Source: a virus (Duplodnaviria; Caudoviricetes). Taken from it: 64,000 nucleotides of DNA. Below are positions 15,013 through 24,343 of the stretch, piece by piece (position 1 is the stretch's first letter; each line of letters opens with the position of its first letter). The DNA is taken from the IMG/VR virus record IMGVR_UViG_3300049578_000049, positions 5,443 to 69,442 of that record, one strand, 5' to 3'. The position numbers and the translations under genes are program-made. Under the pieces are notes generated by a model. It was not told the DNA's origin. It saw only the letters and a list, made by a program, of their open reading frames with translations, and searched no databases.

Positions 15013-16113
15013 GTGAGCACCGACAACATCCTGACGACCATCCACCAGGCCGATTGGCGATGGGGTCTGGCGATCGCCGCCGTCGTGCTGCTGCTCGTCC
15101 TGTTGGCCCGCCTGCTGCGCCGCGCCCGCCAGTCCGGCGCCGCCGCGGCGGTCACCTCGCTGGCGACGACGCTCGGCCTCGGCTGGTCCGCGCAGGGCAT
15201 GTGGGACACCGCCGTGCACAGCTACGACCAGGGCCCGTGGACCGCCTCGGTGCTCTTCATCGTCTTCGAGGCGTGGCTGCTCGGCCGCATGCTCCGCGCG
15301 CACCAGTACCGCGGCGACCGTCCCCGGCGCGCCAGGTTCGTCGCCGCGGTGTGGACCGGCGCGATCGTGATGGCCGTCGTCGTCGCCACCGGCGAGGGCT
15401 GGTCGCAGGCGCCGGGCCGCCTCGCCATCCCGCTGCTGGTCGCGTACGGCTGGTACACCGATCTGACCGCCGACGACGACCCGGCCGAGCAGGCGGTGAC
15501 CAGCTGGCGATGGACGCCGCGCCGGGTCCTGCTGGCGCTCGGCGCGATCGAGCCGGGCAAGCGCGACGCGCACACGATCGACCGCGCCCGTCACGTCAAG
15601 GCGATGCGTGATCTTGCTTTCCGGATCGGCAACAGCCATCCACTGTTGAACGACGCGCTCCGTCGCCGCGTTCGCCTGGCCAAGCTCGAGCTGGCCGCCG
15701 ACGACGAGATGATCCGCGCGGCCCGGGCGGACCTCTCCCGGATCGGCACCGTGCTGCAGAAGTCCGCCGAGCCGGAGCCGCGGGAGACGCACCCCGTGAT
15801 GCCGCCGCAGCCGGTCGAGCCCGAGCGTGTCCGGCCGGCCAAGCCGGCGGAGTCCGAGCCGCAGCGCCGGGTCCAGGGCGTCCACACCCGGGTCGGTCGC
15901 ACGATGCGTGGCGACGAACTGGAGGCCGACGCCGTCGCCGTGCACCGCAAGTCGATGAGCACCGACCGGCCGCGAGGGATGACGGCCGCCGAGCTGGCCG
16001 CCCTCTACGAGCCCGCGCTGGGGATGCGCAAGGCCGAGGAGTACGCCGCCAAGTCCCGCCGCCAGATCAACGGGTCAGTTCCCGCCCTCGATCTGCCCGG
16101 CGTCACCCGGTGA
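15013..16113 (+). CDS. Multi-pass membrane protein, Spd/DUF2637-like plasmid-spread protein
   Basis: Several TM helices with the WSAQGMW...LFIVFEA...RLAIPLL pattern, then a Pro-rich linker and a possible C-terminal wHTH. Confidence 0.65.
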   Translation: MSTDNILTTIHQADWRWGLAIAAVVLLLVLLARLLRRARQSGAAAAVTSLATTLGLGWSAQGMWDTAVHSYDQGPWTASVLFIVFEAWLLGRMLRAHQYRGDRPRRARFVAAVWTGAIVMAVVVATGEGWSQAPGRLAIPLLVAYGWYTDLTADDDPAEQAVTSWRWTPRRVLLALGAIEPGKRDAHTIDRARHVKAMRDLAFRIGNSHPLLNDALRRRVRLAKLELAADDEMIRAARADLSRIGTVLQKSAEPEPRETHPVMPPQPVEPERVRPAKPAESEPQRRVQGVHTRVGRTMRGDELEADAVAVHRKSMSTDRPRGMTAAELAALYEPALGMRKAEEYAAKSRRQINGSVPALDLPGVTR

Positions 16114-16155
16114 ATAGCGGGTAAAACTCCAGCTCAGCAGCCATATGTGCCATCT

Positions 16156-16200
16156 GGGGGTACAGCCTTGCGCTGAGTGTCGTACTGGGGGTACAGTATA
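16156..16200 (+). promoter_or_regulatory. Tandem GGGGGTACAG motifs overlapping a sigma70-type promoter (TTGCGC-N18-TACAGT)
   Basis: Copies at 16156 and 16187. Confidence 0.8.
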
Positions 16201-16232
16201 CATATCAGCAAGGGCGAGACAGGGAGAGCGAC

Positions 16233-16448
16233 ATGCAGACCGTGACCATCGAGATCAGCGACAACCAGCCGAACCTGACCAACGGGACCGTCCTCGGCGA
16301 CCTGGTCACCGGCAAGTACACGGTCGCCGACCTGGCCGGTTGCCTCCCCTCCAGCGCCATGGTCACGATCACGGTCTCCGACAACGAGGGCGGCTTCCCG
16401 GTCAGCCAGAGCGTGACCCTGGAGCAGTTCGCGAAGATCCTTAGCTGA
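16233..16448 (+). CDS. Hypothetical protein
   Basis: GGGAG RBS; follows the motif promoter. Confidence 0.7.
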   Translation: MQTVTIEISDNQPNLTNGTVLGDLVTGKYTVADLAGCLPSSAMVTITVSDNEGGFPVSQSVTLEQFAKILS

Positions 16449-16455
16449 CCAGCAC

Positions 16456-16483
16456 CAGGGCGGCGGCTCTGGCCGCCGCCCTG
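16456..16483. terminator. GC-rich hairpin
   Basis: 12-bp stem CAGGGCGGCGGC/GCCGCCGCCCTG. Confidence 0.45.
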
Positions 16484-16509
16484 CCGACCGACAGAAGAGA
16501 GAGAGAGCG

Positions 16510-16779
16510 ATGGCCGTCAAGCTGGTCTCCACCGAGACGATCTACAAGGTGAACGTCACCACGAAGCTGACCTTCGTGGACGAGTACGACCACGACCTGT
16601 CCTGCATGCCCACCGTGGCCCGCGTCTACGTCAGGAACGGCAAGCTGGACAAGATCGAGCTGGACGGCGACGACGAGAGCGGTTTCTTGTCGGACGGCAT
16701 CATCCTGCGCGACCTCGCCCGGATGTCCGGCCGGCAGGCCGCTCTGATCCGCAAGATCCGCGCCGCGTGCGGGGTGTGA
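16510..16779 (+). CDS. Hypothetical protein
   Basis: GA-rich RBS; GC3-consistent. Confidence 0.7.
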   Translation: MAVKLVSTETIYKVNVTTKLTFVDEYDHDLSCMPTVARVYVRNGKLDKIELDGDDESGFLSDGIILRDLARMSGRQAALIRKIRAACGV

Positions 16780-16780
16780 C

Positions 16781-17062
16781 ATGGCCCGCACGTTCGTCTT
16801 CAGCGACAACCTGGCCGCCCGTGCCGAGCTGATCCATGACGACGTGGCTGGTGAGTGGCGCGCCTACTGCGCGGGCTGCTCGCCCGCCTACGACCGCTAC
16901 GACTCCGGCCCCGACCTGCTGCGCGACACGCACGAGCGTTTCTCGCTGGAAGACGCCGAGCAGGTCGCCGCGATCCACGTCGACCAGTGCCGCCGCTGTG
17001 CCGACCCCGACTGCCGTACCCAGGGCCGCCACGACGCCGGCCACCGCTGCCGAAAGGACTGA
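16781..17062 (+). CDS. Cys/His-rich hypothetical protein
   Basis: CAGC, HxxxC, CxxPxC motifs. Confidence 0.6.
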   Translation: MARTFVFSDNLAARAELIHDDVAGEWRAYCAGCSPAYDRYDSGPDLLRDTHERFSLEDAEQVAAIHVDQCRRCADPDCRTQGRHDAGHRCRKD

Positions 17063-22825: not shown

Positions 22826-22833
22826 GTCCGACG

Positions 22834-22969
22834 TGCGGGTCCGCAACTCTGTGCGGACACCGCACCCGAGACCCGCAACCGAAGGGCACGCCGCGGCCGG
22901 CGTTGCGGGCCCGCATGGTCCGCACGCTGCCGCGCGTGTGCGGCATACCGCCCGCAACGTTGCGGGCGG
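22834..22969. repeat. CCGCA/TGCGG repeat cluster including a 22-bp perfect palindrome
   Basis: About 11 pentamer copies, 5 of them CCGCAAC/GTTGCGG; CCGCCCGCAACGTTGCGGGCGG at 22948-22969. Confidence 0.7.
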
Positions 22970-23005
22970 GCCGACCCGGCGAGCCGTTGCCGGGAACCGA
23001 GAGGA

Positions 23006-23320
23006 ATGGAGAGGAAAACCGTGGCGATCATCAATTCTCGTCAGCTCGGCGAGGAGATCGAATCCATCCGGAACGAGCTGGGGAAGCTGATCGGCAAATT
23101 GCGGGAGGCGCCGACTCCGCTATTGGCCCAGAAATTCGCCGAGGACGCCATCCGGGCGGGCATGAAGCCGAACCGGGCGATGGCATCGGCCGAGGCGCTG
23201 ACCTCCTGGCGCAATTCGGCGCTCGAGGAACTGGAATTGGCCGAGGGATACTGCGGCTCGCTGTCGCATGTCGTGGCCGCGATGGAGTACCACTCCGGCC
23301 GCACGCTCCGGAACTACTGA
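23006..23320 (+). CDS. Hypothetical helical protein (start may be the GTG at 23021)
   Basis: GAGAGG RBS elements. Confidence 0.65.
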   Translation: MERKTVAIINSRQLGEEIESIRNELGKLIGKLREAPTPLLAQKFAEDAIRAGMKPNRAMASAEALTSWRNSALEELELAEGYCGSLSHVVAAMEYHSGRTLRNY

Positions 23321-23385
23321 CGACCGGGCTGATGGCACCGTTCATGCTCTAATAGGGACGAGACGAGACCGAGAGGGCGCGAACG

Positions 23386-23754
23386 ATGGGCATGACGCGG
23401 AGCGAGTGGTGGTCGGTGGCCGAGAAGTCCGCGGCCGAGCACTACGGCCGGAAGTACGCCAGTTTCTTCATGTTCCGGCGGTGGATGGCCGGCCCGCTCG
23501 GCGTGGTGCTGGCGGCCGGCGCCTTCGGCTGGGGAGCGTGGTGGGTCTGGACGCACGCGGCTGCAGCGTTCACCCGGCCCGGCGCCGGACTGCCGTCGGG
23601 GGTCTGGGTACTGGCTGGTGCCTGGCTGGTCGTCACGGTCGTGGCCTACCGCCCGGGCCGGGGATTCGCGATGCCCGGCTTCAGAATCGTCAAGGGCTTC
23701 GTCGTCGTCGCCGGATGGCTCACCCTAGCCGGCTACGTCATCGCGTCGCTCTGA
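23386..23754 (+). CDS. Membrane protein (3 TM), Spd-like candidate
   Basis: Hydrophobic segments; located in the transfer module. Confidence 0.65.
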   Translation: MGMTRSEWWSVAEKSAAEHYGRKYASFFMFRRWMAGPLGVVLAAGAFGWGAWWVWTHAAAAFTRPGAGLPSGVWVLAGAWLVVTVVAYRPGRGFAMPGFRIVKGFVVVAGWLTLAGYVIASL

Positions 23755-23770
23755 CACCGTCCAGCGATCG

Positions 23771-23794
23771 AGCCCCGCTCCGGCGGGGCTTTTT
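23771..23794 (+). terminator. Intrinsic terminator
   Basis: AGCCCCGC-TCCG-GCGGGGCT-TTTT. Confidence 0.75.
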
Positions 23795-23890
23795 CGTGCC
23801 TAGAGATTACAGGCGGGCGTGGATGCCCTACGATGTCGTTACGGGACGCGCGCCGCACTGGGCGCAAACCGGACACCGAGAGGAGACGAG

Positions 23891-24343
23891 ATGACCGACC
23901 TTGTGCCGACGGACGTACCGATCGTCGGGCACCCTGACGAGATAGCCATGGTCCTGCGCACCGCAGCGCACCGCGGGAACCTGCTCACCGACCCGCGGCG
24001 GATCACGCCCAGGCGCCTGGCCGACGGCCGTCACGCCGTGAAGGTCCGGATGCTGATGCCCCGCCAGCCGGTCCGGGCGCGCGCCCGGCGCTGGTTCGCG
24101 ACGCACGAGGTGGCCGGGGCGATGGTCAAGGCCTTCGCGTTCGTGATGACCCTGGCCGCCATCGGCGTGGCACTGCTCGCCGTGACGGTCGCCCTGGCCC
24201 GCAACGCGCTGGCCGGCGTCGACTGGACGCCGCTGATCGGCGCGGCCGCCGCGGCCGCAACGTTGCTCCTGGCCGTGAACCGTGCCCGCCACTCCGGCAC
24301 CTGCCCCGGCATCGCCGTGCACTGCAAGGGCTGCAAGCACTAG
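23891..24343 (+). CDS. Membrane protein with a C-terminal HxxxCxG...HC motif, Spd-like candidate
   Basis: GAGGAG RBS; two TM segments; ends HSGTCPGIAVHCKGCKH. Confidence 0.65.
   Translation: MTDLVPTDVPIVGHPDEIAMVLRTAAHRGNLLTDPRRITPRRLADGRHAVKVRMLMPRQPVRARARRWFATHEVAGAMVKAFAFVMTLAAIGVALLAVTVALARNALAGVDWTPLIGAAAAAATLLLAVNRARHSGTCPGIAVHCKGCKH

What the first reader, a model, noticed from the sequence alone, without database searches (positions are those of the whole stretch)
15013..24343. A complete tailed phage carrying a Streptomyces-type TraB conjugation module
Seen: a full packaging, head, tail and lysis gene set shares the element with a 769-aa membrane FtsK/SpoIIIE-type ATPase (GMSRSGKT), an Spd/DUF2637-like membrane protein, a TraA-like gene, further small membrane proteins and repeat arrays next to traB. 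Established: in mycelial actinomycetes, TraB alone transfers dsDNA of plasmids and AICEs, and Spd proteins promote intramycelial spread. Such elements normally lack virion genes. Inference: this element may move both as virions and by TraB conjugation or hypha-to-hypha spreading of the prophage genome.
Basis: partly seen in the sequence, partly recalled or inferred. Interest (0 to 1): 0.87.

Follow-up and report, generated by a model that had tools for sequence, protein, structure and literature searches.

The report
Phage lineage carrying TraB DNA pump
A complete 69-kb soil phage of a filamentous actinomycete carries, as a conserved core part of its genome, a relative of the TraB motor that Streptomyces plasmids use to push double-stranded DNA between hyphal cells, together with a matching DNA docking site, so its genome may spread from cell to cell without virus particles, although nobody has tested this and a plasmid-phage precedent (pZL12) exists.

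Summary
The window is 64 kb of a 69.4-kb virus record that closes into a circle and has a full virion and lysis gene set. ORF 20022-22331 is a distant TraB relative: NCBIfam plasmid_TraB E 7e-79 (below the equivalog cut-off), about 30% identity to pSN22, pJV1 and pWTY27 TraB, four N-terminal TM helices, an FtsK-motor fold, and a probable winged-helix C-terminal domain. Directly after its stop lies a clt-type array (palindrome plus five TCTGACA). Its motif and position match the experimentally footprinted clt of pWTY27 (TGACACC repeats), and the same layout follows every relative's gene. A 366-aa membrane protein (15013-16113) has homologs inside an Actinoplanes AICE and beside a DUF87 ATPase. 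No TraA-like gene or Pfam DUF2637 hit was found. It is not a prophage, and no integrase, resolvase or ParB was found. A chimera is very unlikely: three independent assemblies agree, and 6 of 6 near-complete TerL relatives carry the gene. Virion-independent transfer of phage DNA across hyphal walls remains the best inference but is untested. Precedents are pZL12 and a 2015 suggestion for phage Spd homologs. This scan has noted similar modules in about 94 other genomes. Interest is moderate to good: a new variant of a known kind.

The parts
12203..12553 (+). g20, first gene of the 12-kb plus-strand module, transcribed divergently from the replication/recombination genes. Function unknown.
   Evidence: Codon-model gene call. 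Conserved at 40-58% identity in relatives L002-L005 and L007. No family hit.
13847..14614 (+). g23, conserved 255-aa protein of unknown function.
   Evidence: 37-52% identity in five relatives. No Pfam, PHROG or NCBIfam hit.
15013..16113 (+). g25, 366-aa membrane protein and Spd-like candidate: N-terminal TM helices followed by a charged C-terminal region.
   Evidence: TM segments. About 100 homolog clusters in the same phage clade. Distant homolog P0225 lies in the spd position of an Actinoplanes AICE and P0224 lies next to a DUF87 ATPase. Atlas neighbours include DUF2637, SpdB_N and HTH_SpdB_C clusters. No Pfam hit and no similarity to pJV1 or pSN22 Spd ORFs.
17469..18173 (+). g30, conserved 234-aa protein with C-terminal TM segments.
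   Evidence: 43-51% identity in six relatives. TM segment at 177-195. No family hit.
18194..18562 (+). g31, small protein with two TM helices.
   Evidence: Hydropathy. Also called as 130 aa by the public gene callers.
19506..19592 (+). Terminator-like hairpin (19506-19528) followed by the only sigma-70-like promoter of the region (19564-19592). Together they mark the start of the g35-g36-TraB transcription unit.
19608..19829 (+). g35, 73-aa protein, first gene of the TraB operon.
   Evidence: 45-48% identity in L005 and L007.
19832..20041 (+). g36, 69-aa HTH_17 (MerR/excisionase-type) DNA-binding protein whose end overlaps the TraB-like start by 20 nt.
   Evidence: Pfam PF12728, E 2.7e-12. Conserved directly upstream of the TraB-like gene in all relatives.
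20022..22331 (+). TraB-like dsDNA translocase, 769 aa: four TM helices (30-153), FtsK-type motor (about 170-590, Walker A 297-304, GEAD 414-417), acidic disordered linker (592-667), and a winged-helix-like C-terminal domain (676-768).
   Evidence: NCBIfam NF041214, E 7.4e-79. tblastn to plasmid TraB, about 30% identity. Structure model pLDDT 80.5. Foldseek best match FtsK motor, E 3.5e-14. Invariant motifs across 26 homologs. C-terminal domain.
22332..22471 (+). clt-like cis site: palindrome CTGTCAGCTGACAG (22335-22348), terminator hairpin (22347-22367), CTTAGGGGG box, then five direct TCTGACA repeats (22393-22466), the last one just before the next gene's RBS.
   Evidence: The same layout occurs in L001-L005, L008 and L009 and downstream of plasmid/AICE TraB genes, including the experimentally defined clt of pWTY27 and the pJV1-type repeats of pSN22.
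22481..23320 (+). g38 (22481-22825) and g39 (23006-23320), small soluble proteins of unknown function downstream of the array.
   Evidence: Weak and patchy conservation.
23386..24343 (+). g40 (23386-23754) and g41 (23891-24343), conserved small membrane proteins that end the module.
   Evidence: TM segments. 33-46% identity in four or five relatives.
24362..24393 (.). Perfect 16+16-nt palindrome, a bidirectional terminator between the plus-strand module and the convergent lysis/virion unit.
24407..52834 (-). Lysis, tail, head and packaging genes of the same genome.

Best explanation
The element is a complete, circularly closing, roughly 69.2-kb siphovirus-type genome of an uncultured mycelial actinomycete. 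The host is possibly in Micromonosporaceae, but this is weakly supported.

Its 12-kb plus-strand module is a functional actinomycete-type dsDNA transfer and spread system. A membrane-anchored TraB-like hexameric motor docks through its C-terminal winged-helix domain on the TCTGACA repeat array just downstream of its own gene, which acts as a clt. Helped by the Spd-like membrane protein g25 and the small membrane proteins g30, g31, g40 and g41, it pumps unprocessed replicating phage dsDNA through septal cross-walls or hyphal contacts. One adsorption event could then seed neighbouring compartments or hyphae without virions.

Shown here: TraB homology, fold and domain order; conserved catalytic motifs; a clt layout and motif shared with a footprinted plasmid clt; module synteny; and core-gene status in the phage lineage.

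Inferred: DNA binding, pore formation, translocation of the phage genome, and the benefit to the phage.
For: TraB homology: NF041214 E 7.4e-79 over residues 65-619; 28-30% identity to pSN22, pJV1 and pWTY27 TraB with E 1e-35 to 2e-39; FtsK motor as best fold match, E 3.5e-14. G297, G302-K303-T304 and E415-A416-D417 are invariant and G414 is nearly invariant in 26 homologs that are 37-59% identical to the window protein.

C-terminal domain: all top structural matches are winged-helix domains, Z 5-6.4. Its profile aligns with the pWTY27 Tra C-terminus at hhalign E 9.7e-5 through a shared SRPW(F/V)S..L.D.A motif.

clt: 5 of 7 TCTGACA copies lie in 74 bp right after the stop. The same palindrome, box and CTGAC(A/G)C array occur in all relatives, including a copy only 36% identical. 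The pWTY27 clt, footprinted by its Tra protein, consists of TGACACC repeats at the same position. Other TraB loci have the same layout with their own 7-9-mers.

Spd-like partner: g25 homologs lie in a pSAM2-type AICE and beside a DUF87 ATPase.

Core gene: 6 of 6 near-complete TerL relatives carry it, with conserved synteny. Three independent assemblies give the same gene order.

No integrase, resolvase or ParB was found, so it is neither an AICE nor an obvious plasmid.

Precedent: transfer of the plasmid-phage pZL12 needs a major tra gene. Thoma et al. 2015 suggested that phage SpdB2 homologs might assist the spreading of phage DNA.
Against: No experiment exists, and there is no cultured host or phage. 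The NCBIfam score (266 bits) is far below the TraB equivalog cut-off (800), so conservation of function is assumed. The winged-helix assignment rests on middling Z-scores and a non-significant Foldseek result. g25 has no detectable similarity to characterised Spd proteins and no Pfam domain. No GntR-type TraR and no TraA were found. The repeat array lies in the promoter region of the next gene, so it could instead be an operator. A lytic phage that kills its compartment might gain little from pumping DNA, and the timing of expression is unknown.
Confidence: 0.5

Rival explanations
1. The module serves maintenance rather than spread. The genome persists as an extrachromosomal prophage, and the TraB-like pump with its repeat array acts like FtsK/SffA with a centromere-like site, moving copies into new hyphal compartments and spores and so replacing a ParAB system.
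For: No integrase and no ParB were found in a complete genome. An XRE-type HTH gene and a divergent early region are present. The motor has the FtsK fold. The only experimental precedent, pZL12, is a plasmid-prophage with ParAB.
Against: No plasmid replication initiator or partition gene was recognised. No copy of the phage was seen as a plasmid contig or prophage in 201 Micromonosporaceae genomes, apart from a lone TraB-like gene in Rhizomonospora. TraB homologs are transfer proteins, not segregation proteins, in every tested case.
Confidence: 0.2
2. The TraB-like protein is real, but the repeat array is only a transcriptional operator for g38-g41, bound for example by the HTH_17 protein g36. 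The pump acts on other DNA or in another step, such as completing genome entry, excluding superinfecting DNA, or interfering with host plasmids and AICEs.
For: The array sits between a terminator and the next gene's RBS, and its last copy is adjacent to that RBS. A DNA-binding HTH_17 protein is translationally coupled to the TraB-like gene. Published notes on FtsK-like genes in isolated Streptomyces phages suggest replication or development roles.
Against: The same layout downstream of plasmid TraB genes is the proven clt in pWTY27 and pJV1-type plasmids. The motif matches the pWTY27 motif while the C-terminal domains share a recognition-helix motif. The motif differs between TraB lineages, as expected for a site read by TraB itself.
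Confidence: 0.15
3. Assembly artefact: a phage contig was wrongly joined to a separate AICE or plasmid.
For: The record comes from a metagenome. IMG/VR labels it linear.
Against: Three independent assemblies (69,442, 69,167 and 69,255 bp) have the same gene order. Six relatives of 65.6-70.6 kb share TerL, five of them tested also share the capsid, and all have the syntenic module. Composition is even across the junctions. The ends overlap by 215 bp.
Confidence: 0.02

Closest known systems
TraB/Tra of Streptomyces conjugative plasmids with their clt sites (pWTY27, pSN22, pJV1, pSVH1)
   Same: Membrane anchor, FtsK-type motor and C-terminal DNA-recognition domain. About 30% identity over the motor. 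A repeat array lies at the 3' end of the gene with the same layout, and its core motif is nearly identical to the pWTY27 TGACACC repeats.
   Different: The score is far below the NCBIfam equivalog cut-off. The protein is about 100 residues longer, with an acidic disordered linker. It forms a separate, long-branched clade. There is no GntR TraR and no TraA; an HTH_17 gene lies upstream instead. It sits in a virus genome with no plasmid replication gene recognised.
Streptomyces plasmid-phage pZL12 / phiZL12 and its relative pSLE1
   Same: One DNA molecule encodes virion proteins and an actinomycete-type tra locus needed for conjugal transfer (citing Zhong et al. 2010).
   Different: pZL12 and pSLE1 are 86-90 kb plasmids with ParA/ParB, and, from my memory of Zhong et al. 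2010, which is not held here, a RepA. No ParB, integrase or recognisable plasmid replicon was found here. TerL is only distantly related to those of Streptomyces plasmids, about 35% identity. No direct sequence comparison with pZL12 itself was possible.
pSAM2-type AICEs of actinomycetes
   Same: A homolog of g25 lies in the spd position of an Actinoplanes AICE between an FtsK_SpoIIIE gene and RepSA. An HTH_17 protein is also present.
   Different: There is no integrase, RepSA, GntR regulator or short TraSA-type ATPase. The element has a full virion gene set.
FtsK/SpoIIIE-like genes annotated in isolated Streptomyces phages (Geonosis, Jaresh, AndoPrime) and SpdB2 homologs in phiC31 and VWB
   Same: Phages of mycelial actinomycetes carry translocase or Spd-type genes. 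Spread of phage DNA has been suggested for them.
   Different: tblastn of this protein against 50,697 phage records found nothing at E<=1e-3, so those genes are not close relatives. None has a described clt.

Membership tests
TraB (plasmid transfer protein TraB, NCBIfam NF041214) | Sequence match to the family model above its curated equivalog cut-off | tested here: not met
   266 bits, E 7.4e-79, against a cut-off of 800 bits. Clear homology, but not an equivalog.
TraB (plasmid transfer protein TraB, NCBIfam NF041214) | N-terminal transmembrane anchor | tested here: met
   Four helices at 30-51, 70-92, 98-121 and 125-153 in the model, with matching hydropathy segments.
TraB (plasmid transfer protein TraB, NCBIfam NF041214) | FtsK/SpoIIIE-type translocase domain with Walker A and Walker B | tested here: met
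   Foldseek best match is the FtsK motor, E 3.5e-14, target TM-score 0.62-0.68. G297, GKT 302-304 and EAD 415-417 are invariant and G414 is nearly invariant. There is no Pfam PF01580 hit, but the named Streptomyces TraB clusters also show no precomputed Pfam domain.
TraB (plasmid transfer protein TraB, NCBIfam NF041214) | C-terminal winged-helix domain that reads the clt repeats | tested here: inconclusive
   Domain model pLDDT 88.6. VIA-align top hits are all winged-helix domains, but Z is only 5-6.4. Foldseek is not significant. hhalign to the pWTY27 Tra C-terminus gives E 9.7e-5, probability 58%. DNA binding was not tested.
TraB (plasmid transfer protein TraB, NCBIfam NF041214) | Cis-acting clt with direct (and inverted) 7-9-bp repeats at or near the 3' end of the gene | tested here: met
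   The array at 22332-22471 is conserved in relatives and has the same layout as the proven clt of pWTY27 and the pJV1-type repeats of pSN22. Function in transfer was not tested.
TraB (plasmid transfer protein TraB, NCBIfam NF041214) | Hexameric pore that translocates dsDNA and is required for transfer | not testable with these tools
   Needs biochemistry and mating assays.
Spd proteins (SpdB2 / DUF2637 / SpdB_N-HTH_SpdB_C) | Match to a family model, or to Spd-region ORFs of classic conjugative plasmids | tested here: not met
   g25 has no Pfam hit at E<=10. hhalign of the g25 profile against the Spd-region ORFs of pJV1 and pSN22 gives E 0.26 and 0.43. The held Pfam copy may lack the newest SpdB models. 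The atlas gives only a lead, with scores of 0.87-0.94.
Spd proteins (SpdB2 / DUF2637 / SpdB_N-HTH_SpdB_C) | Integral membrane protein encoded beside the Tra ATPase of a conjugative element | tested here: met
   TM segments. Homologs lie in an AICE between FtsK_SpoIIIE and RepSA and directly upstream of a DUF87 ATPase. g25 is syntenic with the TraB-like gene in all phage relatives.
Phage-plasmid of the pZL12 type | Plasmid replication and partition genes together with virion genes | tested here: not met
   Virion genes are present. ParB (PF02195) was not found in a six-frame search. No ParA or Rep family appears in the precomputed Pfam tables. An unrecognised replicon cannot be excluded.
AICE (actinomycete integrative and conjugative element) | Integrase/excisionase and RepSA-type replication next to tra and spd genes | tested here: not met
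   PF00589 and PF00239 are absent from the whole record, with positive controls working. No RepSA was found.

The most novel reading that the evidence does not exclude
A non-integrating, possibly virulent tailed-phage lineage uses a TraB/clt/Spd-like system as a bacterial counterpart of plant-virus movement proteins. Replicating phage genomes would be pumped through hyphal cross-walls, so a lytic infection spreads inside a multicellular bacterium without an extracellular step.
Probability: 0.35. Interest if true: 0.85.

Novelty: new variant of a known kind. Interest (0 to 1): 0.6.

Why it matters
If the module works as inferred, phages of mycelial bacteria have a second, capsid-free route of spread. 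That would change how burst size, host range, receptor-based resistance and plaque formation are understood in Streptomyces-like hosts, including antibiotic producers. It would also blur the line between phages and conjugative elements.

This lineage is a clean test case. The pump is a core gene, no plasmid or integration functions confound it, and a short, well-defined candidate recognition site sits next to it. That site is nearly identical to one already footprinted in a plasmid, so a binding test could be run with synthetic DNA and protein even without a cultured host.

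Tried and rejected
- Pfam on the 769-aa protein gave no family even at E<=10. An A1 profile search of PDB sequences gave nothing relevant.
- tblastn of the protein against 50,697 phage records gave no match. A megablast of 24 kb against phages gave only a chance 200-nt hit.
- A single-sequence scan of IMG/VR found nothing; the alignment was needed.
- TraA: no module protein hits the traA genes of pSN22 or pJV1.
- The g25 profile against the Spd-region ORFs of pJV1 and pSN22 showed no similarity.
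- Neighbours of the TraB-like gene in Rhizomonospora (L008) gave only an XRE HTH and weak hits, which is uninformative. That genome has no match to this TerL or to g25, so it does not identify a host or a prophage.
- In 201 Micromonosporaceae genomes, only motor-domain matches were found apart from Rhizomonospora.
- The pZL12 paper itself is not held, so it is cited through PMC4487206 and PMC3583192.
- Complex prediction (TraB membrane domain with g25) could not be reached in three tries. It was not run and so gives no evidence either way.
- Misassembly was considered and rejected.
- The careful tree search did not finish, so the quick IQ-TREE result was used, without an FtsK outgroup.

Full report
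**What the window is.** The window is bases 5443-69442 of a single 69,442-bp virus record. The first and last 215 nt match with one mismatch, so the assembly closes into a circle of about 69.2 kb. CheckV rates it 100% complete. GC content is even at 65-75% across the window. Because high GC creates many false ORFs, I called genes with a codon model trained on the clearest ORFs, which gave 100 genes.

**Genome layout.** There are two divergent units.
- A long minus-strand unit runs from 12.1 kb down through the record ends to 24.4 kb. It holds YqaJ, ERF, an exonuclease, a helicase, a methylase, a DnaN clamp, an AAA_25 helicase-like protein, an XRE HTH protein, many small genes, and then the virion and lysis genes.
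- The virion and lysis genes are TerL, a Mu-type portal, a protease/MuF-like protein, the capsid, tail genes, the tape measure, GDPD, a GH25 endolysin and a DUF1353 protein.
- A 12-kb plus-strand unit (g20 to g41, 12203-24343) ends at a perfect bidirectional terminator at 24362-24393.
- No tyrosine integrase, serine recombinase or ParB was found in six-frame searches whose positive controls worked. The precomputed Pfam tables for nearly all genes show no ParA, RepA or RepSA.
- This is therefore a free phage genome, not a prophage or an AICE.

**The ATPase.** ORF 20022-22331 (769 aa) carries GMSRSGKT at 297-304.
- Pfam finds nothing, and PHROGs gives only an unnamed family.
- NCBIfam's plasmid_TraB model matches residues 65-619 at E 7.4e-79, but at 266 bits against an 800-bit equivalog cut-off.
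- tblastn hits 51 actinomycete plasmids, mostly annotated traB, at about 30% identity. They include pSN22, pJV1 and pWTY27.
- An AlphaFold model (pLDDT 80.5) shows four N-terminal TM helices, an alpha/beta motor, an acidic disordered linker (592-667) and a small C-terminal domain.
- Foldseek's best matches are FtsK motor domains (E 3.5e-14), followed by TcpA and EccC/EssC.
- The C-terminal domain modelled alone (pLDDT 88.6) has no significant Foldseek hit. With VIA-align its best matches are uniformly winged-helix domains at Z 5-6.4.
- This is the TraB domain order described by Vogelmann et al. 2011, as summarised in PMC3583192 and PMC4447253.

**It is a core gene of a phage lineage, not a chimera.**
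- About 80 clusters of full-length homologs (35-58% identity) exist in metagenomes. Many sit on contigs of 64-70 kb.
- Seven IMG/VR records carry one. Four of the five tested share TerL at 67-75% and the capsid at 79-89% identity, and two of them have direct terminal repeats.
- The module from g20 to g41 is syntenic in these relatives.
- Starting instead from TerL, all six near-complete relatives are the same TraB-bearing records; the other three are short fragments.
- The window's own element was assembled three times independently with the same gene order.
- G297, G302-K303-T304 and E415-A416-D417 are invariant and G414 is nearly invariant across 26 homologs.
- In a quick ML tree the phage-type proteins form one clade (SH-aLRT 100) on a long branch away from plasmid TraB. 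Copies from Rhizomonospora bruguierae, an 83-kb virus record and 105-kb contigs branch deeply inside it.
- TerL is under 40% identical to that of any cultured phage.

**The clt-like site.**
- Two nucleotides after the stop codon lies the palindrome CTGTCAGCTGACAG. It is followed by a terminator hairpin, a CTTAGGGGG box and five direct TCTGACA copies within 74 bp.
- Those five copies are five of only seven in the 64-kb window. CTGAC[AG] is about 100-fold enriched in the array.
- Every relative has the same layout with the same core CTGAC(A/G)C, including the Rhizomonospora copy that is only 36% identical.
- The literature supplies a direct comparator. The clt of pWTY27 covers 16 bp inside the tra gene plus 159 bp downstream, contains four TGACACC repeats, and is footprinted by the Tra protein (PMC3583192). 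I read that sequence. The stop codon lies inside a GTGACAC repeat, as it does in phage relative L009.
- Other TraB loci show the same order of inverted copies, CTATAGGGG-like box and direct array, each with its own 7-9-mer. pSN22 has the CCGCACA repeats published for the pJV1 clt.
- The phage C-terminal domain profile aligns with the pWTY27 Tra C-terminus (hhalign E 9.7e-5) through a shared SRPW(F/V)S motif at the start of the predicted third helix.
- Position, layout, motif and recognition-domain similarity all point to a TraB recognition site. An operator role for the downstream genes is not excluded.

**Partners.**
- g25 (15013-16113) is a conserved membrane protein. It has no Pfam, PHROG or NCBIfam hit.
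- Its language-model neighbours include Actinomycetota clusters with DUF2637, SpdB_N and HTH_SpdB_C, which is a lead only.
- Its distant homologs give better evidence. In Actinoplanes derwentensis the homolog lies within a pSAM2-type AICE whose gene order is GntR, FtsK_SpoIIIE, small genes, PycTM, the homolog, RepSA, HTH_17, integrase. In another Actinoplanes genome it lies just upstream of a DUF87 ATPase.
- Profile comparison with the Spd-region ORFs of pJV1 and pSN22 found nothing.
- g30, g31, g40 and g41 are further conserved membrane proteins.
- g36 is an HTH_17 protein whose end overlaps the TraB-like start.
- A terminator and the region's only sigma-70-like promoter bracket a g35-g36-TraB operon.
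- No TraA-like gene and no GntR regulator were found.

**Interpretation.** The sequence evidence supports a working TraB/clt system with Spd-like helpers inside a phage that lacks integration and recognisable plasmid functions. The most economical role is the one TraB and Spd proteins play for plasmids: transfer of unprocessed dsDNA between hyphae and spreading across cross-walls (PMC4447253), here applied to the phage genome. I put this at about 0.5. The rivals are segregation of an episomal prophage (0.2), a different role for the pump with the array acting only as an operator (0.15), and an assembly artefact (0.02).

**Host.** The host is unknown. Hits for the TraB-like gene and g25 in Rhizomonospora and Actinoplanes hint at Micromonosporaceae. 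However, no phage copy was found in 201 genomes of that family.

**What is already known.**
- pZL12 is a Streptomyces plasmid-phage whose conjugal transfer needs a major tra gene.
- Thoma et al. 2015 suggested that SpdB2 homologs in phiC31 and VWB might assist the spreading of phage DNA.
- Isolated Streptomyces phages carry annotated FtsK-like genes.
Those are unchecked notes.
- New here: a distinct, deep TraB subfamily that is a core gene of an uncultured 65-70-kb phage lineage without plasmid or integration genes, and a candidate clt tied to an experimentally footprinted plasmid clt.

Noticed in passing
window 12554-13332: A 780-bp non-coding gap holds two tRNA-like genes on the plus strand. 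The one at 12679-12753 (Rfam tRNA, 48 bits) has an aberrant anticodon loop according to ARAGORN. The one at 13027-13150 (39.8 bits) is 124 nt long with an insertion of about 50 nt, and ARAGORN misses it. A perfect 16-bp hairpin follows at 13209-13252.
   Followed up: partly
IMG/VR relative holding L001 (G001:C1:31513-34098): TerL of this relative is interrupted by an in-frame insert of about 870 nt within one 889-aa open frame, which suggests an intein.
   Followed up: no
window 54150-55481 (-): A 443-aa early-region protein has a C-terminal match to the globin family (Pfam E 2.2e-5, 25.4 bits), which is unusual for a phage gene.
   Followed up: no
window 27616-28497 (-): A glycerophosphodiester phosphodiesterase (GDPD) gene sits between the tail genes and the endolysin. 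It may be a cell-wall teichoic-acid depolymerase and so a possible clue to the host envelope.
   Followed up: no
L026, L025, L028, L012 and L014, downstream of the TraB-family genes: Plasmid or AICE TraB loci of Micromonosporaceae and Streptomyces share one layout: inverted copies, a (C)CTATAGGGG-like box, then a direct-repeat array with a lineage-specific 7-9-mer. The conserved box between the inverted and direct repeats is not mentioned in the papers I read.
   Followed up: partly
L008 / L024 (Rhizomonospora bruguierae NBRC 107566, contig of 37.8 kb): A cultured actinomycete carries a full-length phage-type TraB-like gene (36% identity) with the CTGACAC array, but no match to this TerL or to g25. 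Its neighbours are unannotated. The nature of the element is unknown.
   Followed up: partly
L014 3643-4501 (pWTY27 10642-12102): The 14-kb conjugative plasmid pWTY27 has an ORF that RefSeq annotates as 'phage major capsid protein' just downstream of its tra/clt region.
   Followed up: no
L010 9487-9987 and L013 1778-2221: A PycTM-type membrane protein ('Pycsar effector family') lies in the spd region of both the Actinoplanes AICE and pJV1. This suggests that some proteins annotated as Pycsar effectors are Spd-type transfer proteins.
   Followed up: no
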